DNA from: an uncultured Thermococci archaeon
Lineage (GTDB): Archaea; CAYQAE01; CAYVLA01
Direction: 5' to 3'
Assembly: GCA_964549615.1 (NCBI GenBank)
Contig: CAZJVP010000021.1
Span: 1-14,719, forward strand
DNA length: 14,719 nt
In this document: positions 1,477 to 13,947 of the stretch, piece by piece
Layout of the letters: each line of letters starts with the position of its first letter
Numbering within the stretch: position 1 is the stretch's first letter
Notes under the pieces: model-generated
Database searches by the model: none
Told to the model about the DNA's origin: nothing
Seen by the model: only the letters and a program-made list of their open reading frames with translations
Position numbers and translations under genes: made by a program

Positions 1477-1494
1477 CGCGACCGCGGGATTAGG

Positions 1495-1510
1495 TTTTGT
1501 TAACGGTTAC
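1495..1510 (-). promoter_or_regulatory. putative BRE/TATA for the glycosyltransferase (probably leaderless)
   Basis: Minus strand GTAACCGTTAACAAAA, an AT-rich element about 25 nt upstream of ATG 1476 in GC-rich context. Confidence 0.4.
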
Positions 1511-1597
1511 TGTGGGGGTTAGCGTTCGCAGCCAGCTTCTTCTCTCCGGTGTCGATATCAGACCCGCCCCGTCTGTTGCGCCAGCCCCTTATGGCAT

Positions 1598-1633
1598 TAT
1601 CTCCTTGCCTAATCTTGTCTCCTTGTCGAATCT
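1598..1633. repeat. imperfect 18-bp tandem duplication
   Basis: TATCTCCTTGCCTAATCT (1598-1615) and TGTCTCCTTGTCGAATCT (1616-1633), 15/18 identical. Confidence 0.6.
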
Positions 1634-1867
1634 TTGGCAAAGGTCGAGGGTGCCGAAACGTCCAGACGAACCGAAGGGAGGTCGCGGAGAAAGGCCGCCG
1701 CACCCGGGATTGAGAGGCCTGCGGTAAGCCTCCGGCGTAGTGAGTCGGCCTGGGCAAGAAACTGCGAGGAGGGCAGATGCCGGACGGCGCGCCTCCTTTC
1801 TCATCTCGACGAGTGATCCATTACCGTATGCCCGAGAGCAAGGCAGGCACCGCATGAGGCTCTGCAA

Positions 1868-2854
1868 CTACAGCAGCTTTGTCCTGAGTTCCTCGGGAGG
1901 TCTTGGGGATAAGTATGCCGCGGGGATATCGAAAACGGTCCTCGCGCCGATCTGGCCCTCCCTGTTCAGCCTGTATGCGGCCCTGGCATATGCCACCAGA
2001 ACATTCCCGGTGAACTCCGGGTTGCTGTCAAGTTTCAGCGCGAACTCCATCACATGTCTGTGATTTGCCCCGGTTGTCCCGGTTCTCAGGACGAACCCCC
2101 CATGGGGCATGCCTGAGTGCTTCGCTTTCAGCTCCTCTTGGGTGATGAATGTCACGCTCGTGTCGTAGTCCGCGAAGTAGTTGGGCATCGTCTGTATCTC
2201 GTGTCTTATTCTATCTAGATCCGCGCCGGTCTCGGCAACCACGTAGCATTCCCGTCGATGTCTTTCCCGGGGCGTCAGATCAGGGTTCTCGCCTGCCCGA
2301 ACTCTCTTGACCGCGGCTTCTATGGGGATGGTGTATTGCACTGCGTCCCTAACGCCCTCAATCCCACGTATGGCATTGGAATGTCCCTGGCTGACGCCCG
2401 GGCCCCAGAAGGTGTAATCCTTGCCGTTGGGCAACGACACCTCTCCGATCAGCCTGAGCAGCGAGAACAAGCCCGGATCCCAACCTACCGAAATCACGCT
2501 GGTTTTGCCGGCCCCCCTGGCTGCCTTGTCAACGGACCGGAAGTACTCCGAAATCTTGGCGTGGGTGTCGAAGCTGTCCACGGTGTTGAACATTGATGCG
2601 AACTTCGGACCCTGCTCCGGCAGGTCGGTGGCCGAGCCGCCGCAGAGGATGGCAACGTCCAGGTCATTGACGTGGTCCGCAATCCGGGATATGTGAAAAA
2701 CCCTAGAGGTTGGAAGCTGCGTCGCAAGTCTGGTGGAGGCCCTCCTCGTGAAGATGCCCCCCAGCGCCATGTCGGGATTCTGTTCCAGCGCAAGCTCAAC
2801 GCCCTTACCCACGTTGCCATAACCGATGATGCCGAGTCGTATCCGCTCGCCCAT
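1868..2854 (-). CDS. ddh: meso-diaminopimelate D-dehydrogenase (NADP-dependent, type A-like)
   Basis: 328 aa with Rossmann GYGNVG, FTRR, LCGGSATDLP, DSFDTHA, GWDPGLFS, YTFWGPGVSQGHS, AVQYT, MPNYF, GMPHGG and SNPEFT motifs, all diagnostic of Ddh. GGTGG RBS-like sequence upstream. Confidence 0.96.
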   Translation of the reverse strand: MGERIRLGIIGYGNVGKGVELALEQNPDMALGGIFTRRASTRLATQLPTSRVFHISRIADHVNDLDVAILCGGSATDLPEQGPKFASMFNTVDSFDTHAKISEYFRSVDKAARGAGKTSVISVGWDPGLFSLLRLIGEVSLPNGKDYTFWGPGVSQGHSNAIRGIEGVRDAVQYTIPIEAAVKRVRAGENPDLTPRERHRRECYVVAETGADLDRIRHEIQTMPNYFADYDTSVTFITQEELKAKHSGMPHGGFVLRTGTTGANHRHVMEFALKLDSNPEFTGNVLVAYARAAYRLNREGQIGARTVFDIPAAYLSPRPPEELRTKLL

Positions 2855-2949
2855 CGTGAACCACCATCCTCATCCTTGGCATCTTCGTGGCATCGCAGCC
2901 CCGATCCCAGTCCGAGCCAGGGATTTAGTCAGACTAGGGTACCCGGTCG

Positions 2950-2962
2950 GAAAAAGTTTTTC
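2950..2962. promoter_or_regulatory. AT-rich palindrome in divergent intergenic region (candidate promoter/operator)
   Basis: GAAAAA-G-TTTTTC between the divergent starts at 2854 (-) and 3002 (+). Confidence 0.35.
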
Positions 2963-3001
2963 TCCGGAGATCAGCCGGCCTCGCTTAGCCTGGCCGGATC
3001 C

Positions 3002-4228
3002 ATGAACGCTGAGGGAGTTGGTGGCACCGGTCGAACCGGTCGGTCGCCTGATTGGGCGGTCGCGTTCGTTATCTCCTTGCAACTGGCCCCACTGGTGCTG
3101 GGCGGGGTCGACGGCAGGAGGATTTCCTGTCTTGTGATCGGCGATTCCGTACAGGCTCCGTACAACCCATTTACCGCCCTCTTCGTGCAGGACCCGCTCT
3201 TCCGTTACGCCCTCTATCCACTTCCCCATCTTGGGGATGCTGAGAAAAGGAAGCTGGATCGGGTTTACTACCCGCGGACGTTCGAATCTCTTGTGGATAG
3301 CTACGACGTGATGATCTTCAGGGACGCCATGGTCAGCCATTTCAGTCCCGCCCAGTTCAGGGACTTGGAACGCGCGTTTCGAGAGGCCGGCATGGTGTCG
3401 GTCACTGTCCACAGCCTGTCCTGGAACGACGTCTGGGTGCCGACCGTACTCTACGACCTCTCCCCGATATCGGCGTATGATTTTCGCTTCTCTTTAACCT
3501 GGAGGGTGAGGTTCCGCAAGGACAGGGATCCGGTTTTCCTGCCCTTCGTCGAGCTTGGAATGGAGAAGGTCTCGGGCTGGGAGTACGGGGTGCCCGAGGC
3601 CAAGGAGGGGGCAACGATCTGGGCCGAAATGGTCCCGCCGGGATGTCCATGGCTGGTTTCCTGGAGGCCAGGCGGGAACAAGGCCGGCCTACAGTGGGTG
3701 TTTGCGGACAAATTCGATGTGACCTGGTGGGGGACGGCTCCAGGGGCCAGGGAAACCAACCCCTACGCGATCGATCTTGCGACAAACCTCCTTCTCTACT
3801 CCCTTGACAGGGCTCTGATCAGCGACATCCATGCCCGGAGGGAGGCGCGGCGGCTGCTGTCCACATTCCAGTCTAGGAAGATCCTCATCCTGTCGGTGCT
3901 CGACTGGGCCGAGAAGTTCGGGGCAAGCATCCTCGACCTTACCGATCGCCTCGCGGAACTCGAGCGTGAAGCTGGAACGGCTGTGGAGGACTACCTGGAT
4001 CAGGACTACGCCTCGACGATCCAGTTCATGGAGTCGATGTTGTCCGAGGCTGCCGAGATGACAGCCGCGGCACTGCAGAGGAAGGATCGGGCCCTGTACT
4101 GGGTGTACACCTCCGAATGGCTGTCGGTCACCTCGGCGAGCGTCTTGGGGGGAGCGATGGTCTGGAGCCTCATGGTCCGTAGGCGGAAGTACAGGGAGAC
4201 GGGGAGAACGAGGCTCCGGACCTGCTAG
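3002..4228 (+). CDS. membrane-anchored protein of unknown function (about 408 aa), possible class I glutamine-amidotransferase-like extracellular domain
   Basis: Part of the 2672-4228 ORF; start moved to ATG 3002 to avoid overlap with ddh. N-terminal hydrophobic segment WAVAFVISLQLAPLVLGG, alpha/beta region (ISCLVIGD...YYPRTFESLVDSYDVMIFRDA...ATIWAEM...PWLVSW), helical stalk, C-terminal TM (WVYTSEWLSVTSASVLGGAMVWSLMV) followed by RRRK. Fold assignment is tentative. Confidence 0.75.
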   Translation: MNAEGVGGTGRTGRSPDWAVAFVISLQLAPLVLGGVDGRRISCLVIGDSVQAPYNPFTALFVQDPLFRYALYPLPHLGDAEKRKLDRVYYPRTFESLVDSYDVMIFRDAMVSHFSPAQFRDLERAFREAGMVSVTVHSLSWNDVWVPTVLYDLSPISAYDFRFSLTWRVRFRKDRDPVFLPFVELGMEKVSGWEYGVPEAKEGATIWAEMVPPGCPWLVSWRPGGNKAGLQWVFADKFDVTWWGTAPGARETNPYAIDLATNLLLYSLDRALISDIHARREARRLLSTFQSRKILILSVLDWAEKFGASILDLTDRLAELEREAGTAVEDYLDQDYASTIQFMESMLSEAAEMTAAALQRKDRALYWVYTSEWLSVTSASVLGGAMVWSLMVRRRKYRETGRTRLRTC

Positions 4229-4473: not shown

Positions 4474-4872
4474 CTACTCCCAGATGCGTGACACCGTCTC
4501 AACTCGGTCGAAGTCCTTGTCGTTGGAGTAGATTTCGCTGACGCCGCTCCTCTGCATGATCTGAACCGAAAGAGCATCGACGTAGTCGATCTTGTGGCTT
4601 TCCATGCGGTCCAAGGCGGAGATCATATCGCTCCATGAGGCGCTTTCCTTTCTCAGGCTCGGATAGGAATTCACCGCCGTCAGGAAGGTCTTGACTTGGT
4701 CCCTTCGGTCGTTGTACTCCAGCCAATCGACAACCTCTTGGAGGACTGCGGTGCTGGTGATGGCTTCCTCGCCGTCTAGAATCCTCTGCATGATCTTACG
4801 CGATACTTCAAAGGACGCCCTCGGACGACCGGTTAGTAAAAAGATGAAGACGTTGGCGTCAACGAACCTCAT
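4474..4872 (-). CDS. vapC: VapC-family PIN-domain toxin
   Basis: 132 aa with FVDANVFI, TSTAVLQEV, DYVDAL and IYSNDKDFD, giving the four acidic PIN catalytic residues. ATGA overlap with the antitoxin. Confidence 0.93.
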   Translation of the reverse strand: MRFVDANVFIFLLTGRPRASFEVSRKIMQRILDGEEAITSTAVLQEVVDWLEYNDRRDQVKTFLTAVNSYPSLRKESASWSDMISALDRMESHKIDYVDALSVQIMQRSGVSEIYSNDKDFDRVETVSRIWE

Positions 4873-5138
4873 CTGGCGACCCTCGAGGTCTTCTTCTCGA
4901 TCCTCATTGCGGCAGCCTTCCTTGCCTCGTTCTTCGGCTCGCCCCTGCCCCCGATTTCTCTCACGAGTCCGCTCAGCATTTCGATCGGGTTCGCCACAGT
5001 CTTCTCGGGGGACAGCACCAGTTGGCCCGCTCTCACTGCGAGCGTGAGCGTATCGCCCTCTTTGATGGCCAGCCGTTCCCTAATCTCAAGGGGGATTGTG
5101 ATCTTGCCTTTTTGAAGCACCTTCACCTGGGTACTCAT
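4869..5138 (-). CDS. vapB: AbrB/MazE/SpoVT-family antitoxin
   Basis: 89 aa with VKVLQKGKITIPLEIRERLAIKEGDTL swapped-hairpin signature, directly upstream of the PIN toxin. Confidence 0.92.
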   Translation of the reverse strand: MSTQVKVLQKGKITIPLEIRERLAIKEGDTLTLAVRAGQLVLSPEKTVANPIEMLSGLVREIGGRGEPKNEARKAAAMRIEKKTSRVAR

Positions 5139-5674: not shown

Positions 5675-5706
5675 CAGAGAGTGGCCCACGAGCAAGATTG
5701 TTCGAA

Positions 5707-7278
5707 ATGGAGCGAAAGATACCTCACACGATGTCGACCCAACACCCGGACAACGCTCGTTCTCCGTCTTGGTGCGCAAACAGCGTAGTGTCAGGCGAAG
5801 ACGAGGTCACGGAGGCATGCTTTGCATACAGCGAGATGGGTTGCGAAGAGGTGATGTGGGACTCGGAAGGAAAAGACGTTGACACTCGCGTCATCCGAAA
5901 GATGTTAAGCAAGTCCCCCGATTACTTCGAGGAGAACGTCATCGGTAGGGATATCTTTCTCACGTACAGACTCCCTAACCCTAGGACCGAAGTCTCGGAA
6001 AGAAAAGTGGTCTTGGAGACTCTCTTCAACATACCGGTCGCCGCTGACGTTGCATCAAGTTTCTACGGAAGGGAGGTTGAACCGATCTTCGAGGTGATCC
6101 TTCCGTTTACAACATGCGCAGAGGACCTCACACGACTGCACGACTGCTACGTCAAGGGCGTTTCCGGGTTCGCAGATATCCCGTTGAACGGGTCATCAAC
6201 CATCGCCGACTGGGTTGGCTCCATAAGACCACGTGACATTCAAGTGATCCCTCTCGTCGAGGATATGGACAGCCTTCTGAAGATCGACAGGATAGTCGCG
6301 CCGTATCTGGATGCCGTCAGGCCTCCGTATCTGCGGGTTTTCTTGGCTAGGTCGGATCCGGCCCTCAACTACGGGATGTTTGGCGCGGTCATACTCTCGA
6401 AGATTTCGATATCTAAGCTTTCGACCCTTGCTGAGGAACGTCGGATTGAGATGCATCCGATCATCGGGGCGGGTTCGATGCCCTTCAGGGGTCATCTCTC
6501 ACCTGAGAACGTCTCGCGCTTCCTTGAAGAATATCCAGGCATTAGCACAGTCACCATCCAATCAGCATTCAAGTACGATTACGACCTCACCCAGGTACGA
6601 AGGGCGATTCGCACTCTTAACCGAAGGCTTCCGACCGAAGATCCCCAAACGCTATCCCGCGACGAGGAGACAGCCTTGGAATCGGTCGTGAAGAAGCTCA
6701 TGGCCGGCTACCAGAGTACCGTGGAAAAGCTGGCCCCCCTGATAAACAGCGTAGCTCGGTACGTGCCTCCCCGCAGGGCAAGGAAGCTTCACATAGGTCT
6801 ATTTGGATATAGCAGGACCGTCAGGGGCATAGCCCTGCCAAGAGCAATCCCCTTTGCCGCGGCACTTTACTCGATCGGATTGCCCCCCGAGTTCATCGGT
6901 GCACGGGTGCTTTCCGATCTCAGCGAGGATGAGTGGGAGCTCCTTAAGAAATGCTACGCGAACATGAAGCATGACCTGACTCACGTCTCCCAGTACCTCT
7001 CTTGGAGAAACCTGCAGATGATCGGAGACATGCACTCGGAGGTCGCCAGGAGGGCTTGTATGAGCGATCAAGATCTGGAATGCGCACTTGGGCAGCTCTC
7101 AGTCGACTTGGGCGTCGTTGAGAAGAACTTGGGTGTCAAGCTTGGACCAAGGAATCTTGCCCAAAGGAAGTACGAGAACATCCTCTGCAACTTCCTCATC
7201 GCCTACATCGAGAGAGAGGATCAGGAAGCCGAAGCCAATCTGGTCCGTGCAGCCGTTCTCAGGAAATGCCTAGGCTAG
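5707..7278 (+). CDS. ppcA: archaeal-type phosphoenolpyruvate carboxylase
   Basis: IPHTMSTQHPDNA (catalytic His), EVMWDSEGKDVD, EVILPFT, VIPLVED, RVFLARSDPALNYG, GAGSMPFRG, TIQSAFKYD, RKLHIGLFGYSR, LPRAIPF and C-terminal R..LG motifs. Start is ATG 5707 or in-frame TTG 5698. Confidence 0.96.
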   Translation: MERKIPHTMSTQHPDNARSPSWCANSVVSGEDEVTEACFAYSEMGCEEVMWDSEGKDVDTRVIRKMLSKSPDYFEENVIGRDIFLTYRLPNPRTEVSERKVVLETLFNIPVAADVASSFYGREVEPIFEVILPFTTCAEDLTRLHDCYVKGVSGFADIPLNGSSTIADWVGSIRPRDIQVIPLVEDMDSLLKIDRIVAPYLDAVRPPYLRVFLARSDPALNYGMFGAVILSKISISKLSTLAEERRIEMHPIIGAGSMPFRGHLSPENVSRFLEEYPGISTVTIQSAFKYDYDLTQVRRAIRTLNRRLPTEDPQTLSRDEETALESVVKKLMAGYQSTVEKLAPLINSVARYVPPRRARKLHIGLFGYSRTVRGIALPRAIPFAAALYSIGLPPEFIGARVLSDLSEDEWELLKKCYANMKHDLTHVSQYLSWRNLQMIGDMHSEVARRACMSDQDLECALGQLSVDLGVVEKNLGVKLGPRNLAQRKYENILCNFLIAYIEREDQEAEANLVRAAVLRKCLG

Positions 7279-7649
7279 ATCCGCCAGCGAGCCTTCACAT
7301 TACGGAAACGACGGGAACGGTTGGTCTGCGAAGGCATCCCCATCGGAGATACGCTGCAGTTGCCGATTGGGCGTCTGCCATGTATCGAGGGGGCACTTGA
7401 GTTCCTTGTGGGACTCGGCAGTCTTTTCGGTCGATTGCGGGTACAAGGCTCCTAGGTTGTTGGTGTTGTGAGCCATGTCGAAGTGCGCTGTAGGGATTCC
7501 GCAGGCCGGGTCAGCGAGGGGCCCTGGATCATGCACGGGGACATTTTGGGACTCGCAGGATCCCGGTGATCTGCCAGTTCGAAGAATTCCGCGGGGACGA
7601 GTCACAGCTCAGTTGGCACCCATTATGGAATCCCTCGCGGAATGCTGGT

Positions 7650-8696
7650 TCATGCCAATCGAAGGTACTTGACGGAGATCACTCTAATATAGTCAGCGGT
7701 GTTTTCGCAGGCATCCGCGAGGTCCTCAAGCCTCATAATGACCTCATTGACCACGAAAAATGAGGCCGCATCCAGCAGCTGCGACTCTCTGAGCAATCGC
7801 TTCACAAGGTTTCTACGGAGACCGTCCACATGGTCCTCCAGCTGGGATACCAGGTCGGACAGATCCTCGGCCGCGACAAGATCGGTGTTGAGTTGCGTAA
7901 CCGCTGCGGATAGTGTTTCCACCGTCTCGGCGACCGCCTCTGCCAGTTCCCGTAGGCCTGGAACCACTGCGCTTGGGAAGTGGTACTCCTCTGCAAGCTC
8001 GAGTCTGTAGGCGAGGGCCTTCGCCGCCGTGCCGATGTGTCTTATGTGGTAGACAAGGTTCAGCAAATCGGCCCTGTCCTCGGGCAGGAGTTGCGACTTG
8101 GTTATCACCTCCAGAGCCCGGACGGCCAGCGCATCGGCCTCGTTCTCCAGCTTAATCGTGCGGGATGCTTCCTCCTCCATGGTAGCAAGGTCACCCTTGA
8201 GGAAGTCTTGCACGGCCCTGTGCATGACGCGGACGACCTCCAGAGTCCGTTGCATGCGCTGGCTCACGAGCTCGTAGACGTCCCTTTGCGTCTTCTCTCC
8301 AAGCCATGCTCGACCACGGACTCGGGCTTTCAGCAGCTTCTCCCTCTTTTCCGCGATCGCGTGGGTCTCGTAGTCATCCTTTGCCGTTTCGGGACACATC
8401 CTGACACCGCTGTAATACCCTGCTCTTCCGATGGCATGCGAGCTTATCGGTGCGGTGAGGAATAGGAAGATGACCGACAGTAATATCTTTGCCCCTGAAG
8501 CGACGCTGGGGCCCATGAGCAAGGAGCCCACCGCGACTCCGCCGATGCCCAGTGTAACCACCTTCGAACTGGCATGTAGCCTCGTATACAGATCGGGAAA
8601 CCGGATAATCCCCAAGCTTCCGGCGAAGGTGAAAAAGCATCCTAGGAGAATCAGCGCCACGCCCGCGGCGTCTAGCAATAGGCTGGCCAAGCTCAT
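7650..8696 (-). CDS. mrpG: Mrp/Mnh subunit G fused to a C-terminal DUF47/PhoU-like domain
   Basis: aa 1-110 are MrpG (GIIRFPDLYTRLHASSK, LTAPISSHAIGRA). aa about 131-348 form a two-repeat helical DUF47-type domain (LENEAD...PEDRADLLNL; LEDHVD...LEDLADACENTAD). Single 348-aa ORF with ATGA overlap with mrpF. Confidence 0.88.
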   Translation of the reverse strand: MSLASLLLDAAGVALILLGCFFTFAGSLGIIRFPDLYTRLHASSKVVTLGIGGVAVGSLLMGPSVASGAKILLSVIFLFLTAPISSHAIGRAGYYSGVRMCPETAKDDYETHAIAEKREKLLKARVRGRAWLGEKTQRDVYELVSQRMQRTLEVVRVMHRAVQDFLKGDLATMEEEASRTIKLENEADALAVRALEVITKSQLLPEDRADLLNLVYHIRHIGTAAKALAYRLELAEEYHFPSAVVPGLRELAEAVAETVETLSAAVTQLNTDLVAAEDLSDLVSQLEDHVDGLRRNLVKRLLRESQLLDAASFFVVNEVIMRLEDLADACENTADYIRVISVKYLRLA

Positions 8697-8953
8697 TCCA
8701 GCTCTCCCTCCAAGAACCTCGCGATGAGTAGGACGGCCACGAAGGAGACGAGGGTCAGAGGCACGAGGGCCTCGAGAAACACAGGGTCTTGCCTCATCCC
8801 AAGAATGATGAAGATTGCTATTGAGATGGAATTGATGGTCCCATATGCCATGAGTTGATCGGCCGCCGAGGGACCTCTAGCCAACCTGATGATGCAGAGG
8901 GAGACCGATATGAACAGAACTGCGAGGCAGATCCACGCCACTAGGTCGATCAA
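8693..8953 (-). CDS. mrpF: Mrp/Mnh subunit F
   Basis: 86 aa, 3 TM, RLARGPSAAD and SFVAVLLIARFLE; lies between E and G; TTG start overlaps the mrpE stop. Confidence 0.87.
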   Translation of the reverse strand: MIDLVAWICLAVLFISVSLCIIRLARGPSAADQLMAYGTINSISIAIFIILGMRQDPVFLEALVPLTLVSFVAVLLIARFLEGELE

Positions 8954-9450
8954 CCGAACACCCTCGAAAGGATGCGCTCGTATCTGCCAGCTATCATGCG
9001 TTTCACCTCGTCCAGAGATTCCGACCTTATCGTTATCCAGTGAACGTACATAGTCTTCGATCTCTCATCTAGATCCAGGAAGAAGGTGCCTGGGGTCAAG
9101 GTGATGGAGTTGGCCAGAAGGGTCAGCTCCCATCGCTTTGAGAGATGGGTCTTTATCCCGACGACCCCGGGTCTTATCGCCAGTTCTCGCTTGAGGACGA
9201 TCCCTGTGACGAAGACTCCTGCCTTTACGACCTCCTTTATCAGGACCAGAAGATACAGCAACATGAACCCCCATCTCCTCGGGTCCAGCATCTTTCTTGC
9301 CGGTCCTTCGAATGCATAGGTTCCGAAGAACCAGCCGAGGGGCACACAGATCATGAGCCCGGCGAGGAGGAAGTCCACATCCGTTGTTGGCGCTAGCAAT
9401 GCCCAGACCGCGTAGGACAAGGCCCCACAAGCAAGACATCTGCCTTTCAT
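8950..9450 (-). CDS. mrpE: Mrp/Mnh subunit E
   Basis: 166 aa with IRPGVVGIKT, LLANSITLTPGT, MYVHWI and YERILSRVF motifs. Confidence 0.93.
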   Translation of the reverse strand: MKGRCLACGALSYAVWALLAPTTDVDFLLAGLMICVPLGWFFGTYAFEGPARKMLDPRRWGFMLLYLLVLIKEVVKAGVFVTGIVLKRELAIRPGVVGIKTHLSKRWELTLLANSITLTPGTFFLDLDERSKTMYVHWITIRSESLDEVKRMIAGRYERILSRVFG

Positions 9451-10914
9451 TCAGATCCCCAACATCGCGGTGATTGCGACCAGCCTGTCCATCATCTGGG
9501 CAGCGACCGTCTTCGATGCCCCGAGTATGGCCCATCCGGCCATGCCCAATGCAATACAACCGAGGGTCAGGATCGATGTTGGCACCTTCATTAATATTGG
9601 TAGATCGGCCGGCGAAATGAAGGCTGGCTCCGAAGAAATCATGCTCTGAATGACGCGTAGGTATGCGGCTGCGGTGATCAAGATTGCGACCGCCAAGACG
9701 ACCAGTGCGATCGAGTTGGTCTCAATAAGCCCCAAGAACAGGTAGACCTTGCTCAGGAATCCCAATGATGGACCGCCGATGTCCGCAACTGAACCGACGA
9801 CGAATGCGATGCAGATGCCTGGCATCAGGGTCCAGGCTCCCTTCATCTTCCCGAACTCCCTCCTGGAAAAGGAGTGGACGAGGCAACCAGCAGACATGAA
9901 GAGCAAGGCCTTCGCCGTGGCATGGTTCATGATACTGAGAACGAGGGATTGGAAGCCTACCATGCTCTGCATGCTCAGCAGGACGACTGAGAACCCGTTG
10001 CTGCTTATCGTCGTGTAAGCAAGAAGCCTCTTGATGTCGGTCTGGCATAAGGCCAATATCGATCCGAAGAGGGCAGTGGCAAGCCCCAGCCAGGGAAGGA
10101 GCGCGGCCGCCCTGAATGACTCAAGTCCCACCGATTGGTGTAGGATCCGGATCATGGCATAAATACCGACCTTCCCCGATGCTCCCGACAAAAGCGCGCT
10201 TACGGCCGTTGGAGCACTCCAGTAGGCATCAGGCACCCAGGTGTGAAGCGGGAATATGGCTGACGTCATCCCAATGCCAATGAGGACCATAAGCATGGCG
10301 AACTCGAGGGCTGCGTCTGCCCCCTGCTGTCTAAGGAACATGCCGATGGCGCCGAGGTTGAGGCTTCCGACCCGATCATAGATCATCACGATGCCGACGA
10401 GGAAGAACAGGCCCGAGAGGGTACTCAATATGACATACTTGATGGACGCCTCAATCTCCTCCGACCCACCCAGAAACGCGACCAGTACACAAGTCGAGAT
10501 GGCACTCAGTTCCATGAACACGAAAAGGTTGAAGAGATCCGTGGCCATAGCTACTCCATTCATGCCCGCTACGAGGAAGTACACGGCCGAGTGGAGCTTG
10601 GATAGGGCTCTTCCCCGCGCTTCGTCGATGCTGAAGACCAGGGCCAGTAACGCAAGGGAAAGGATGATCAGCATTACCAAGCTCCCCATAGCGTCGGAGA
10701 TGAGACCGAGCCCCAAGCCGACCTGCCAGTTGCCTATGCGGTGGATCAACACCTCGCCTTTCCAGGTCTCTCTGAGAATGAACAAGCTGCTTGCACCCAT
10801 CGAGCAACCGACGCCGGCAAGCAAGCAAAGGAGTGCGCGTCTTGAACTCCCAGTGAGTAGACTGACGAGTCCGCCCGTCAGAGGTATGACTATCATGAGG
10901 GGCAGTGCGATCAA
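9451..10914 (-). CDS. mrpD: Mrp/Mnh subunit D (antiporter-like, NuoN/M homolog)
   Basis: 487 aa with IGNW, DLFNLFVFMEL (TM5 Glu), EASIKY, PLHTWVPDAY..AP..SALLSG...KVGIYAMIR, DIKRLLAY, NHATAKALLF and GFLSK. TTG start overlaps the mrpC stop. Confidence 0.92.
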   Translation of the reverse strand: MIALPLMIVIPLTGGLVSLLTGSSRRALLCLLAGVGCSMGASSLFILRETWKGEVLIHRIGNWQVGLGLGLISDAMGSLVMLIILSLALLALVFSIDEARGRALSKLHSAVYFLVAGMNGVAMATDLFNLFVFMELSAISTCVLVAFLGGSEEIEASIKYVILSTLSGLFFLVGIVMIYDRVGSLNLGAIGMFLRQQGADAALEFAMLMVLIGIGMTSAIFPLHTWVPDAYWSAPTAVSALLSGASGKVGIYAMIRILHQSVGLESFRAAALLPWLGLATALFGSILALCQTDIKRLLAYTTISSNGFSVVLLSMQSMVGFQSLVLSIMNHATAKALLFMSAGCLVHSFSRREFGKMKGAWTLMPGICIAFVVGSVADIGGPSLGFLSKVYLFLGLIETNSIALVVLAVAILITAAAYLRVIQSMISSEPAFISPADLPILMKVPTSILTLGCIALGMAGWAILGASKTVAAQMMDRLVAITAMLGI

Positions 10915-11252
10915 CCCTGAAGTCTCCTTAGTGCCCTCGTGTCCGTGTCTCCCGTCGCGTTGAAAACCCTCATCGCAAGAGACAGCATAAACATCGTCAA
11001 GCCGAATTCGATGACGATGGCCGTGAGAACGAAGGCCTGAAGCAGGGGATCCACCACCGTTGCTCCGAGAGGCGGAACCGGAGCGCTTGCGCCTCGAACG
11101 TAGCCGAGTTGGACGAATAGCAGATTCACCCCACAGCCTGAGATCGAAAGACCGAAGATGATCTTGATCAGATCTCTGTTGGACAGCACGCAGTAGACGC
11201 CGATCATGACGAGGAGGAAGGATAGCACGTACGGTAGGGTTGATAGGTCCAT
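10911..11252 (-). CDS. mrpC: Mrp/Mnh subunit C (NuoK homolog)
   Basis: 113 aa from ATG 11252 (GGAGGAG 8 nt upstream): IGVYCVLSNRDLIKIIFGL, GVNLL, DPLLQAFVLTAIVI, RRLQG. The track's 253-aa ORF is over-extended. Confidence 0.9.
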   Translation of the reverse strand: MDLSTLPYVLSFLLVMIGVYCVLSNRDLIKIIFGLSISGCGVNLLFVQLGYVRGASAPVPPLGATVVDPLLQAFVLTAIVIEFGLTMFMLSLAMRVFNATGDTDTRALRRLQG

Positions 11253-11254
11253 CG

Positions 11255-11668
11255 TCAAGACTCCTCCGTTATGCCGAGCATCTCTCCTAGGGCAATGATC
11301 ATCTCGCTCCCGACGAGGGCACCAATGACGAGTCCGAGAAACACGAGACCCGGGGAGGCAAGAAGCGTTCCTGCGCCCGCCAGCATTGCCGTCTCTAGGA
11401 AGCGTCCCGTGACCGCTAGGGTGACGCAGGACGCGGCGGTCAACAGCCCAAAGGCCAAGTTCCTCACACTTACGACCCATCGCACTCTGGTGAAGAAACC
11501 GATTCCCTTCTCCTCCGCCACAATCATAAGGCAGACGGCCACTCCAGCAACGACTCCCCCAGCAAAGGCCCCGCCTGGGGACTGGACCCCGGTGACAACC
11601 AAGTAACACGCGTAAACCATGATCAAGGGGCTCAGAAGCTTGCAGACAGTCCTGACGGGCAGGGACAA
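11255..11668 (-). CDS. mrpB: Mrp/Mnh subunit B (MbhF-like)
   Basis: 137 aa hydrophobic protein with SPGGAFAGG (PGGGF-type motif). TTG start 8 nt after GGAGG. Confidence 0.85.
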   Translation of the reverse strand: MSLPVRTVCKLLSPLIMVYACYLVVTGVQSPGGAFAGGVVAGVAVCLMIVAEEKGIGFFTRVRWVVSVRNLAFGLLTAASCVTLAVTGRFLETAMLAGAGTLLASPGLVFLGLVIGALVGSEMIIALGEMLGITEES

Positions 11669-12193
11669 TCATGTTGCCTCCTTCACTTTCTTCGTGACAA
11701 CAGCGATACCGAGGATGGAGACGAACAGCACGCAGACCTCGCCGAGGGTATCGTAGGCCCGGAATCCAAGCAGGATGGCCGTGACAAGGTTGCTGCTTCC
11801 CGTCTCCGACCTTCCCGAATCAGCATACTTGCTCACGAGTTCAGGCGCCTCTCCACCGAAAGGTGACAGGGCCGGAGCCACGAAAGCTGCAAAGATCAAC
11901 AGGGCTAATGCCAGGGACAGCGCAACTAGCATCCTTATGCGACGTGGTTCTACCGCCACGGCAACCCTGTGGGTCTTGGCGACGACGAGGACAAGGATGC
12001 AGGTCTTGATGACCTCCGTGACCATCTGGACAACGCCGAGATCAGGTGCCCGGAGGGCGAAGTAGCTGCAGGAGATGAAGAAGCCAACGGCTCCTAGGCA
12101 TACCGCAGACGACAGAAGGTCCTTGAGACGGAGGACTAGGACGGAGCAGGCGATAGCAGATGCGAGGGCGAAGAGGTGAAAGAGTTCAATCAA
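11669..12193 (-). CDS. MrpA C-terminal module as a separate gene (DUF4040/MbhD + MbhE-like), 174 aa
   Basis: LKDLLSSAV, LRAPDLGVVQMVTE and NLVTAILLGFRAYDTLGE motifs. Start reassigned to TTG 12193 (TTGA overlap, GGAGGTG upstream) rather than ATG 12289. Confidence 0.85.
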   Translation of the reverse strand: MIELFHLFALASAIACSVLVLRLKDLLSSAVCLGAVGFFISCSYFALRAPDLGVVQMVTEVIKTCILVLVVAKTHRVAVAVEPRRIRMLVALSLALALLIFAAFVAPALSPFGGEAPELVSKYADSGRSETGSSNLVTAILLGFRAYDTLGEVCVLFVSILGIAVVTKKVKEAT

Positions 12194-13947
12194 CCCGCGC
12201 CACCTCCAAGAACGAAGAGCATGCCGCCAACCCAGAGGGCAAGAACGTATGCGACGTAGTCCCGAGTGTTTCCAGAGGCCATCATACATAGGAGGCCGGC
12301 CGCTCGTAGTACAAGGCCCGCCATGCCCTCGAAGAGCCGGTCAAAAAACATCTCCTCCCGGGCCAGCAGCACTATTCCTCCGAAAACGCCCTTGGAGCAG
12401 AGTGCGTAGGCTTCCCGTCTTTTCACCCACACGCCCAGCGCCAGCATCGATGCCAGGTACCCGAGAGTGGTTGTCCATGCTGGCTCCAGGGCCGACGGGA
12501 CGGGAGTGGTCTCGCCGGCCGGGTGGAGGGCAGAATCGATGGTCCTGATCACCCCGGGATGAAGAAACCCAAGTGCCAGACACAGAACTGCCAGGATTGC
12601 GCACGCGGCGATCACGGCCCGGCCAGCCTTCCGATCGCCCTCCCGACGACCACTGCCCCAGAAGAGGTACCAGCCCAGCCTCATGAAGGAGAGGAGAGTC
12701 AGCACCCCGACGAAAATCGACAGACCAGCCAGGGCCGGGAACCGTGCTGCCACGGCCTTTGCGACTATCGACTTGCTGTAGAACCCATTGAAAGGAGGGA
12801 TTCCAGACACGGATAGCAAGCCGACGGCGTAGAAAGGCAAGATCGCCCGGGCATGCCCGCCGATTCTGGAGCGTGCAAGCGCCAGGTCTCTCGTTCCCGC
12901 GGACGACATCGCCCACCCAGCAGACAAGAAGAGAAGTGCCTTGAAGAGACTGTGATTCAGCAAATGCATGGTTGCGCCCGTCGCTCCCTGTGGGGTTCCA
13001 AGGCCAAGCCCCATGAAGATCAAGCCGACCTGGGAAATTGTGCTCATAGCAATGAGCCGCTTCCCGTCCATCTGAAAGAGGGCAAGGAAGACCCCAACGT
13101 AGGCGGTGACCAGTCCGAGGGGCACCACGAAATTGGAGAAGGCTTCCGGCACGGAGCCGAGGATGTGGAAGAACCTGATCATTCCGTATACGCCGGTCTT
13201 GACCACGATGCCGGATAGGAGGGCGCTTATGGGAGTCGGGCTTTCGGAGTGGGCATCCGGAAGCCATATGTGGAAGGGCACAACCGCAGCATCGATGCCA
13301 AAACCGAGGAAGGCGATGGCGGTGAAGACGATGCGAGCAATGGAAGAGCGGAACCCGATCAGGCCGCCCTCAGCCATGTCAGAGGTTCCCGTTTCCGCGA
13401 GGGCTATTGCCACCGATACGATCAGCAGGACGGCCGCTCCCTGGGCCATGATGAAGTACTTCCTGCCCGCTGCCCCGGCGGAGGATTCTCCGGAGTGAAC
13501 AATGAGCATGTAGGAGATAACCACCATCAGCTCCCAGAAGAACATGAGAAGCACCATGTCGGATGAAAGGAATATGCCGTTAAGGGCCGAGCAAAGGACC
13601 AGAATTGAGCAGAAGTACCTGCCTGGATGCATGCCTGCATCCGGATAGGAACCGGACACGATAGAGGACACCAAGCAGAGGAATGAGCTGAGGAGAGCAA
13701 GGATGACGCCTAAAGCGTCGGCATTGAGACGCAGTGCTGGCGACCCGTTCGTGGCCAGCGCAACCCGAATGGGGCCCTGATCCAGAACCCTGAGGCAAAG
13801 ACATAGAGCCGTTACGGTCGTGACCGCAAGAAACGCGGCGGCCAAAGGAAGGACGGATCGGCGAGCCACCCTGGAGGCACCGGCAGCTATCAAGGACCCG
13901 ACCGATGGCAAGCTCACCAGAAGAATCGGAAGGACAGTCCACTCCAC
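12190..13947 (-). CDS. MrpA N-terminal / NuoL-like antiporter subunit
   Basis: 585 aa with FFWELM (TM5 Glu), AGRKY, PFHIWLPDAHSESPTPISALLSGIVVKTGVYG, NHSLFKALLFL, GIPPFNGFYSK, and a lateral-helix-type tail (FFDRLF...SGNTRDY). GTG start with GAGGA upstream. Confidence 0.9.
   Translation of the reverse strand: MEWTVLPILLVSLPSVGSLIAAGASRVARRSVLPLAAAFLAVTTVTALCLCLRVLDQGPIRVALATNGSPALRLNADALGVILALLSSFLCLVSSIVSGSYPDAGMHPGRYFCSILVLCSALNGIFLSSDMVLLMFFWELMVVISYMLIVHSGESSAGAAGRKYFIMAQGAAVLLIVSVAIALAETGTSDMAEGGLIGFRSSIARIVFTAIAFLGFGIDAAVVPFHIWLPDAHSESPTPISALLSGIVVKTGVYGMIRFFHILGSVPEAFSNFVVPLGLVTAYVGVFLALFQMDGKRLIAMSTISQVGLIFMGLGLGTPQGATGATMHLLNHSLFKALLFLSAGWAMSSAGTRDLALARSRIGGHARAILPFYAVGLLSVSGIPPFNGFYSKSIVAKAVAARFPALAGLSIFVGVLTLLSFMRLGWYLFWGSGRREGDRKAGRAVIAACAILAVLCLALGFLHPGVIRTIDSALHPAGETTPVPSALEPAWTTTLGYLASMLALGVWVKRREAYALCSKGVFGGIVLLAREEMFFDRLFEGMAGLVLRAAGLLCMMASGNTRDYVAYVLALWVGGMLFVLGGGAG

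What the first reader, a model, noticed from the sequence alone, without database searches (positions are those of the whole stretch)
7650..8696. MrpG fused in frame to a full DUF47/PhoU-like domain
Seen: 348 aa against roughly 110-130 for ordinary MrpG. A charged linker (AIAEKREKLLKARVRGRA) joins MrpG to a two-repeat helical bundle, and there is no in-frame ATG between M100 and M148, which argues for a real fusion rather than a lost stop. Known: DUF47 proteins normally accompany PiT-family phosphate transporters, and none is in this window. Inference: with three TMs and a cytoplasmic RFPD loop, the domain hangs on the cytoplasmic face near the E/F/G region, where it could regulate transport or oligomerisation.
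Basis: partly seen in the sequence, partly recalled or inferred. Interest (0 to 1): 0.8.

Follow-up and report, generated by a model that had tools for sequence, protein, structure and literature searches.

The report
Mrp antiporter subunit with PhoU-like domain
In an uncultured hot-spring archaeon, the last subunit of a sodium/proton antiporter carries a built-in copy of a domain that normally accompanies phosphate transporters, a rare, strongly conserved and unstudied combination.

Summary
ORF 7650-8696 (-) encodes 348 aa: MrpG (PF03334, res 15-94) followed in frame by a complete DUF47/PitR domain (PF01865, res 140-342). The AlphaFold model folds the C-part as six helices that match the DUF47 crystal structures 2IIU, 3L39 and 2OLT at TM 0.84-0.85.

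It is the last gene of an eight-gene stand-alone mrp operon. It is not a lost stop:
- 18 homologous clusters at 44-90% identity keep the fusion.
- No ATG, GTG or TTG lies between residues 100 and 144.
- A second assembly gives the identical sequence.

The "linker" is MrpG's own basic C-terminal tail.

The architecture is very rare. Among 1.84 billion representatives only one other protein matches both parts. It occurs in 4 of 5 genomes of the window's phylum and sporadically in two other archaeal lineages.

Within the family, the DUF47 part is the best-conserved piece of the operon, at 68-77% identity against 35-68% for the other parts. It keeps the acidic motif residues shared with its nearest free DUF47 relatives.

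The most likely role is a built-in PhoU-family regulator on the cytoplasmic MrpE/G face. The ligand and its effect are inferred, not shown. No paper on it was found.

The parts
7650..8696 (-). mrpG-DUF47 fusion gene (348 codons plus stop), last gene of the operon
   Evidence: ORF and translation; Pfam and NCBIfam matches; 18 fused homologous clusters
8322..8696 (-). MrpG module, residues 1-125: three TM helices with the invariant kink proline P83, followed by the native basic C-terminal tail
   Evidence: PF03334 residues 15-94. The profile of A1 matches MrpG/MbsC/MbhC chains 6u8y_C, 7qru_G, 6z16_G, 7d3u_G and 6cfw_C; P83 aligns with the P86 of 6z16_G. Model helices 3-28, 36-61 and 65-95.
8307..8414 (-). 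Junction, residues 95-130: MrpG's own charged tail runs straight into the DUF47 N-terminus, with no start codon inside it
   Evidence: Unfused ortholog L019 and P0021 align through this tail. No ATG, GTG or TTG between residues 100 and 144. Invariant K120, A124, R125. Model pLDDT below 50 for residues 83-129.
7653..8306 (-). DUF47/PitR (PhoU_div) domain, residues 131-348: two repeats of three helices
   Evidence: PF01865 residues 140-342. Helices 135-167, 170-199, 205-233, 245-268, 273-303 and 310-347 at pLDDT about 77-97 by ten-residue block from residue 141. Foldseek to 2iiu, 3l39 and 2olt at TM 0.84-0.85. Motif residues shared with the free DUF47 set are kept: E186, R231, E287, D291, R294, E318, E324, D328, E331, R338.
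8693..8953 (-). mrpF (86 aa); its stop overlaps the mrpG start (ATGA)
   Evidence: PF04066; overlap; alignment to solved MrpF/MbhB chains
8950..9450 (-). mrpE (166 aa)
   Evidence: PF01899 at 1.1e-34; NCBIfam MrpE models match but below their cut-offs
9451..10914 (-). mrpD (487 aa)
   Evidence: PF00361
10911..11300 (-). mrpC (NuoK-like). The true start is uncertain; the listed 253-aa ORF overlaps mrpB.
   Evidence: PF00420 on the translation of 10911-11300; ORF list
11255..11668 (-). mrpB (137 aa)
   Evidence: PF04039 MnhB
11669..12289 (-). Separate MrpA C-terminal module (MbhD+MbhE-like). The real start is probably near 12190.
   Evidence: PF13244 and PF20501; matches positions of about 600-790 in MrpA models
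12190..13947 (-). MrpA N-terminal antiporter-like subunit (585 aa), first gene of the operon
   Evidence: PF00361; NCBIfam

Best explanation
A genuine fusion kept by selection. In this archaeal lineage the last subunit of a stand-alone Mrp-type cation/proton antiporter (split MrpA, then B, C, D, E, F, G) continues from MrpG's own basic cytoplasmic tail straight into a complete PitR/DUF47 six-helix domain.

The domain therefore hangs on the cytoplasmic face at the MrpE/F/G end of the complex. That is where a cytoplasmic Na+ entry path and the dimer interface have been proposed in solved Mrp structures.

The most likely role is that of a built-in PhoU-family accessory regulator. It would sense a cytoplasmic signal, most probably phosphate or a metal-phosphate species as in its PiT- and phosphatase-linked paralogs, and modulate antiporter activity in cis. 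This would tie the Na+/H+ cycle to phosphate status. It parallels PitR with PitA and the C-terminal PhoU domain of NptA.

Shown: the fusion, its fold, its conservation, its operon context and its rarity. Inferred: cytoplasmic placement, the ligand, and any effect on transport. The confidence of 0.55 is for the regulatory reading; that the fusion itself is real and conserved I put at about 0.97.
For: - Both domains score above the Pfam cut-offs.
- The fold matches DUF47 crystal structures at TM 0.84-0.85, and the N-part matches MrpG chains 7qru_G, 6u8y_C and 7d3u_G.
- All 18 homologous clusters found are fused and 341-348 aa long.
- The junction residues are invariant, and no start codon lies between residues 100 and 144.
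- The same operon order is present in L015, L016, L017 and L019; the short locus L008 (3952 bases) holds only the mrpD-to-fused-mrpG end, in the same order.
- Against L015, L016 and L008 the DUF47 part is the most conserved piece: 77, 73 and 68% identity. The other parts compare as follows: MrpG part 61-68%, MrpF 58-61%, MrpE 43-50%, MrpD 40-50%, MrpA-N 35-48%.
- Residues shared by 60% or more of the 24 nearest free DUF47 proteins are kept, including E287/D291/R294 and E318/E324/D328/E331.
- Paralogs in this phylum are tied to phosphate. In G000, 2 of 4 copies directly follow PiT genes. A G002 paralog follows a purple-acid-phosphatase-like gene on the same strand.
- There are precedents for PhoU-family domains fused to transporters: NptA-PhoU (PMC13170248, sections 5 and 12), and Atlas clusters of MFS+DUF47 (64 members, Archaea) and Na_Pi_cotrans+PhoU.
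- The MrpG C-terminus accepts other cytoplasmic sensor domains: MrpG-Usp in P0126, P0052 and P0149.
Against: - No experiment or expression data exist, and no RNA run was available.
- Mrp is not known to move phosphate, and no phosphate gene lies in the window.
- The fused domain does not group with the two PiT-adjacent copies of this genome. It lies on the other side of a split with 99% SH-aLRT support, among 'orphan' DUF47s whose neighbours are mostly unrelated to transport.
- It is below the TIGR00153 cut-off (57.2 against 104.3 bits).
- Several positions are invariant only in the fused set (for example D164, F165, E174, Y238, N270, N317, K343), which is compatible with a changed function.
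- The model gives no fixed orientation of the domain relative to the membrane part: linker pLDDT is below 50 and pTM is 0.62.
- What DUF47/PitR binds is not established in the papers read.
Confidence: 0.55

Rival explanations
1. The domain has been repurposed as a structural module, such as a brace, oligomerisation element or assembly element at the MrpE/G dimer interface. It would have no ligand sensing and no link to phosphate.
For: MrpG lies at the monomer-monomer contact in the A. flavithermus structure (PMC7419157). Many residues are invariant only in fused proteins. The fused domain is only 37% or less identical to any free DUF47. It is not in the PiT-adjacent branch.
Against: The acidic motif residues shared with the nearest free DUF47 proteins are all retained; a pure brace would not need them. 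The tail is predicted flexible. The closely related operon in L019 works with an unfused MrpG, so the domain is not needed for assembly of this Mrp subtype.
Confidence: 0.25
2. MrpG serves only as a membrane anchor. The tethered DUF47 domain would act in trans on another partner, such as a PiT transporter or a signalling protein, or recruit it into a supercomplex with Mrp so that Na+-coupled phosphate uptake and Na+ extrusion are co-localised.
For: PhoU and PitR act together with a transporter and a sensor kinase in bacteria (PMC13170248, section 12). The genome holds two PiT genes and several PhoU-domain genes.
Against: Each PiT already has its own adjacent DUF47. The fusion travels with the whole mrp operon into unrelated lineages that need not share partners. 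Nothing phosphate-related is syntenic with the operon.
Confidence: 0.12
3. Artefact: an assembly chimera, a sequencing frameshift, or a recent loss of the mrpG stop that joined two neighbouring genes without any functional meaning.
For: The window comes from a metagenome-assembled genome with 104 contigs. The only full-length DNA holder is probably the source sample.
Against: The fusion is found in 18 further protein clusters from several sources, down to 44% identity, with the same junction. It is full-length in G001, G002 and G003 without stops. The DUF47 part is the best-conserved part of the operon. GC and GC3 are equal in both parts. No close split form exists: the best free DUF47 is 37% identical and the best free MrpG 53%.
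Confidence: 0.01

Closest known systems
MrpG / MnhG / PhaG subunit of Mrp (CPA3) antiporters (PF03334, TIGR01300); solved in 6z16, 7qru and 7d3u, and as MbhC/MbsC in 6cfw and 6u8y
   Same: Three TM helices, the R-F-P-D loop, the kink proline in TM3 (P83 aligned to P86 of 6z16_G), last position in an mrpA-G operon, and translational coupling to mrpF.
   Different: It carries about 220 extra C-terminal residues. Ordinary MrpG proteins in the searches are about 100-170 aa. The operon's MrpF has Gly where 43 of 72 sampled MrpF proteins have Asp.
PitR / DUF47 (PF01865 PhoU_div), the accessory regulator encoded beside PiT/PitA; crystal structures 2IIU, 2OLT and 3L39
   Same: Full-length domain with a six-helix fold at TM 0.84-0.85. 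The acidic motifs in the second repeat are retained.
   Different: It is not a free protein and not beside a PiT gene. It is below the TIGR00153 cut-off and 37% or less identical to any free member. It branches apart from this genome's PiT-adjacent copies.
NptA-type Na+/phosphate cotransporters with a C-terminal PhoU domain; archaeal MFS+DUF47 proteins
   Same: A PhoU-family helical domain fused to the cytoplasmic C-terminus of a membrane transporter (PMC13170248; Atlas rows 2 and 6).
   Different: Those carriers are, or may be, phosphate importers. Here the carrier is a subunit of a multisubunit cation/proton antiporter.
MrpG-Usp fusions (P0126, P0052, P0149)
   Same: A cytoplasmic sensor-type domain attached to the MrpG C-terminus.
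   Different: The domain is different (universal stress protein, PF00582), and these proteins lie on a different branch of the MrpG tree.

Membership tests
MrpG/MnhG/PhaG (PF03334, TIGR01300) | Sequence match above the curated cut-offs | tested here: met
   PF03334 91.2 bits (cut-off 23.4), TIGR01300 94.1 (63.1), NF009314 112.8 (102)
MrpG/MnhG/PhaG (PF03334, TIGR01300) | Three TM helices with the conserved proline kink in TM3 | tested here: met
   Model helices 3-28, 36-61 and 65-95. P83 is invariant in 19 of 19 sequences and aligns with P86 of 6z16_G, which PMC7419157 calls essential.
MrpG/MnhG/PhaG (PF03334, TIGR01300) | Encoded with mrpA-F in one operon | tested here: met
   Seven upstream same-strand genes with Mrp Pfam families. 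The same order is present in L015, L016, L017 and L019, and in the part of the operon that L008 holds.
MrpG/MnhG/PhaG (PF03334, TIGR01300) | Cation/proton antiport activity of the complex | not testable with these tools
   Needs a vesicle assay
DUF47 / PitR (PF01865 PhoU_div) | Sequence match above the Pfam cut-off over the whole profile | tested here: met
   81.7 bits (cut-off 24.4), profile positions 9-213 of 214
DUF47 / PitR (PF01865 PhoU_div) | Two three-helix repeats, as in the DUF47 crystal structures | tested here: met
   TM 0.84-0.85 and rmsd 2.6-2.8 A to 2iiu, 3l39 and 2olt
DUF47 / PitR (PF01865 PhoU_div) | Membership of the NCBIfam equivalog TIGR00153 | tested here: not met
   57.2 bits against a cut-off of 104.3
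DUF47 / PitR (PF01865 PhoU_div) | Gene adjacent to a PiT/PitA phosphate transporter (the PitR role) | tested here: not met
   No PF01384 on this contig; the two PiT genes lie on C104 and C20 with their own DUF47 copies
DUF47 / PitR (PF01865 PhoU_div) | Regulates phosphate homeostasis | not testable with these tools
   Genetic evidence exists only for S. aureus PitR (PMC13170248)
Classical PhoU (PF01895) | Match above the Pfam cut-off | tested here: not met
   21.5 bits against a cut-off of 23.5. The structural match to PhoU chains is weaker, TM 0.62-0.76.

The most novel reading that the evidence does not exclude
A PhoU/PitR-family domain has been recruited as a built-in sensor that gates a cation/proton antiporter according to cytoplasmic phosphate, polyphosphate or metal-phosphate status. 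This would be the first PhoU-family regulator of a transporter that does not carry phosphate. It would couple the Na+/H+ cycle to phosphate homeostasis in thermophilic archaea. It would also be a natural regulatory handle sitting at the disputed Na+ entry site at the MrpE/G interface.
Probability: 0.3. Interest if true: 0.7.

Novelty: new variant of a known kind. Interest (0 to 1): 0.5.

Why it matters
No cytoplasmic regulatory domain of an Mrp antiporter is mentioned in the passages of the three Mrp structure papers that I read. A recent survey of 926 bacterial genomes concluded that each PhoU-family clade is tied to one family of phosphate importers (PMC13170248).

A PitR-type domain hard-wired to MrpG, and conserved better than the antiporter's core subunits, breaks that pattern. 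It suggests that PhoU-like domains are general cytoplasmic sensor modules for membrane transporters.

Because the sensor is covalently attached to its presumed target, the question of what a PhoU-family domain senses and does to a transporter becomes testable in a defined complex. The limits are that the hosts are uncultured archaea, the clade is small, and the function is entirely inferred.

Tried and rejected
- Self-association of the DUF47 part (residues 126-348, two copies, alignment A1) with complex prediction: verdict 'no answer', score 0.01 against a mark of 0.42. This is no evidence either way.

- Expression: no RNA holder was listed. X2 holds only a 172-base piece (7730-7901), so nothing can be drawn from it.

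- Lost stop or assembly artefact: rejected.

- Split-gene ancestor nearby: the unfused ortholog operon in L019 has no DUF47 gene after mrpG. The next long ORF is convergent (382 aa; its family was not scanned).

- Conserved phosphate genes next to the operon: none. The window has PEP carboxylase downstream, and G001 has a TctA-family gene.

- Order of events. The MrpG tree places the unfused L019 and P0021 with fused clade 2 (support 90, internally unresolved). An AU test does not reject all fused proteins forming one clade (p 0.409), but the group was named after the tree had been seen. One origin, one origin plus loss, and domain transfer therefore stay open. The DUF47 tree joins the two fused clades plus P0022 at only 80% support. 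Both trees used the 'quick' method.

- MrpF Asp-to-Gly as a special feature tied to the fusion: only partly. Asn is common at that site (21 of 72), and L017 (fused) and L019 (unfused) both have Asn.

- Literature searches:
  - 'DUF47' by word start returned mostly unrelated DUF47xx papers.
  - 'MrpG' plus 'PhoU' gave one false hit, 'pHout'.
  - 'PhoU_div/TIGR00153/PF01865' gave 7 papers, none on Mrp judging by titles and abstract starts.
  - 'Hadarchaeota' plus 'Mrp' gave 6 papers; only the listing was seen.

Full report
WHAT IS THERE

The minus-strand ORF 7650-8696 is open for 348 codons.
- Pfam finds PhaG_MnhG_YufB (MrpG) at residues 15-94: 91.2 bits against a cut-off of 23.4.
- Pfam finds PhoU_div (DUF47) at residues 140-342, covering profile positions 9-213 of 214: 81.7 bits against a cut-off of 24.4.
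- Classical PhoU (PF01895) stays just under its cut-off.
- NCBIfam confirms MrpG (NF009314 and TIGR01300, both above cut-off). It places the C-part near, but below, the TIGR00153 equivalog: 57.2 against 104.3 bits.

An AlphaFold2 model built on 19 homologs gives three N-terminal helices, a low-confidence stretch (residues 83-129, pLDDT below 50) and six confident helices from 135 to 347 (ten-residue block means about 77-97 from residue 141). Foldseek matches the C-part to the DUF47 crystal structures 2iiu, 3l39 and 2olt at TM 0.84-0.85 and rmsd 2.6-2.8 A. It matches classical PhoU structures less well, and it matches the N-part to MrpG chains of solved Mrp and MBS complexes (sequence-profile matches).

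OPERON

The gene is the last of eight same-strand genes running from 13947 to 7650:
- MrpA N-part (585 aa)
- a separate MbhD/E-like MrpA C-part
- MrpB
- MrpC
- MrpD
- MrpE
- MrpF
- MrpG-DUF47

The mrpF stop and the mrpG start overlap as ATGA. No redox-module gene is present. The genome (99.5% complete) has only one strong MrpG match plus one weak one on another contig, so this is its main or only Mrp.

IS THE FUSION REAL?

Yes.
- A word-indexed search of 5.8 billion clusters found 18 proteins. All are 341-348 aa, all carry both Pfam domains, and identity ranges from 44 to 90%.
- In their alignment the junction is conserved: K120, A124, R125, W131, L132 and G133 are invariant.
- Between residue 100 and V144 there is no ATG, GTG or TTG, so the domain cannot be started separately. 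GC and GC3 are the same in both parts.
- Full-length matches without stops occur in the three other genomes of the same family.
- A contig made by another assembler, probably from the source sample and so not independent, is identical over 7400-9100.

The closest free DUF47 (P0020) starts with the same W-L motif. The fusion therefore joined a complete MrpG to a complete DUF47 with essentially nothing added.

HOW COMMON IS IT?

Rare.
- An exhaustive HMMER scan of 1.84 billion representatives gave 3593 hits at E<=1e-3 but only one at E<=1e-30. That one is P0016, the representative of the second fused clade.
- The other 149 listed rows match one part only. The best free DUF47 is 37% identical and the best free MrpG 53%.
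- In the species-level genome collection, 4 of the 80 kept loci reach into the DUF47 part: L015 and L016 are full-length, while L017 and L018 are cut by contig ends. The other 76 are ordinary MrpG.

Counts by lineage:

| Group searched | Genomes with the fused gene |
|---|---|
| The window's phylum | 4 of 5 (all 4 of one family) |
| Class of G041 (holds L017) | 1 of 197 |
| Class of G042 (holds L018) | 1 of 5 |
| Phylum of G043 (holds the unfused L019) | 0 of 66 |

Record titles of the relatives name Candidatus Hadarchaeota, a Thermoplasmata archaeon and Candidatus Methanolliviera. The two DNA holders are labelled hot-spring metagenomes. The patchy spread, with the whole operon conserved, suggests transfer of the operon between archaeal lineages. 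The trees do not settle the order of events.

SELECTION

Compared with the three family relatives (L015, L016, L008), the DUF47 part is the most conserved piece of the operon:

| Part | Identity to the window |
|---|---|
| DUF47 part | 77, 73, 68% |
| MrpG part | 61-68% |
| MrpF | 58-61% |
| MrpE | 43-50% |
| MrpD | 40-50% |
| MrpA-N | 35-48% |

Residues shared by at least 60% of the 24 nearest free DUF47 proteins are kept in the fused set. These include E186, R231, E287, D291, R294, E318, E324, D328, E331 and R338. A further set is invariant only in fused proteins. The free set consists of nearest relatives, not the whole family.

PHOSPHATE CONTEXT

In 926 bacterial genomes, PitA is present in 97.8% of those that have PitR (DUF47), and the two are adjacent with one exception. 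NptA carries a fused PhoU domain, and each PhoU clade acts with its own importer (PMC13170248: abstract, sections 5 and 12).

This genome has four DUF47 copies:
- two directly follow its two PiT genes
- one is an orphan between DUF790 and a LonB-like gene
- one is the fusion

In the DUF47 tree, the fused domains lie apart from the two PiT-adjacent copies, across a split with 99% support. They sit with orphan copies of this phylum. One such orphan in G002 follows a purple-acid-phosphatase-like gene. Another, in G001, has no transport neighbour.

The Atlas's structure search shows other transporter fusions: MFS+DUF47 in Archaea (64 members) and Na_Pi_cotrans+PhoU. Three other MrpG proteins carry a C-terminal Usp domain.

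PLACEMENT

The loop after TM1 carries R32, R39 and K45, and the tail (residues 91-130) carries ten K/R. This places both in the cytoplasm by the positive-inside rule (read from the sequence).

Published structures agree:
- Parts of the MrpG helices and the MrpE ferredoxin-like domain face the cytoplasm.
- TMH3 bends at the essential proline where it touches that domain.
- MrpG S72 is at the monomer-monomer contact.
- C-terminal tags on MrpG were used for purification (PMC7419157 passages; PMC9568556 passages).

READING

The best-supported explanation is a built-in PhoU-family regulatory module acting in cis on the antiporter, probably responding to phosphate or a related species. The rivals are a purely structural role, action in trans from a membrane anchor, and artefact; the last is excluded by the relatives. 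The homodimer test gave no verdict. No paper describing the architecture was found. InterPro could not be queried, and the supplements were closed.

VERDICT

This is a new variant of known kinds (MrpG and DUF47/PitR), rare and uncharacterised, of moderate interest.

Noticed in passing
window 8693-8953 (-), MrpF residue G38: At the MrpF position where all five solved homologs have Asp (called invariably conserved and important for activity in PMC7419157), this MrpF and its family relatives L015, L016 and L008 have Gly. L017 and L019 have Asn. The motif was found in 72 of the 79 loci examined: D 43, N 21, Q 4, G 2, L 2. This may mean an altered cation path in this Mrp subtype.
   Followed up: partly
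proteins P0126, P0052, P0149: Other MrpG proteins carry a C-terminal universal stress protein (Usp, PF00582) domain. The MrpG C-terminus therefore seems to be a recurrent attachment point for cytoplasmic sensor domains.
   Followed up: partly
ESM Atlas clusters (rows 2 and 3): There is an archaeal cluster (64 members, commonest Thermoproteota) of about 612-aa proteins combining MFS_1/Sugar_tr with DUF47. There is also a 655-aa bacterial DUF47-containing cluster. These are further transporter-DUF47 fusions.
   Followed up: no
L105 (G002:C10) 1480-2145 (-) and 2407-3555 (-); L099 (G001:C16) 12774-17149: A free DUF47 paralog follows a purple-acid-phosphatase/PhoD-like metallophosphoesterase gene on the same strand. 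The closest free paralog of the fused domain lies about 2.3 kb downstream of a TrkA_N-DHH-DHHA1 gene and about 16 kb from the fused gene.
   Followed up: partly
window 4474-5138 (-): A PIN-domain gene (132 aa) is preceded by an overlapping MazE/AbrB-type antitoxin gene (89 aa). This is a VapBC-like toxin-antitoxin pair.
   Followed up: no
window 5698-7278 (+) and 1868-2854 (-): An archaeal-type PEP carboxylase (PF14010, 7.6e-175) converges on the mrp operon. A meso-diaminopimelate dehydrogenase (TIGR01921, 452 bits) lies further along.
   Followed up: no
window 2672-4228 (+): A 518-aa ORF has no Pfam or NCBIfam match. Its listed start overlaps the DAP dehydrogenase gene on the other strand.
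   Followed up: partly
window 11669-13947 (-): MrpA is split into an N-terminal antiporter-like gene and a separate MbhD/MbhE-like gene, as in MBH-type complexes. The listed ORFs overlap by 100 bases, so the second gene's true start is probably internal.
   Followed up: no
G000 contigs C84, C30, C104, C57 (loci L112-L119): The genome holds about five PhoU-domain (PF01895) genes, some in open frames of 333-433 aa, in addition to its four DUF47 copies. That is an unusually rich PhoU-family repertoire.
   Followed up: no
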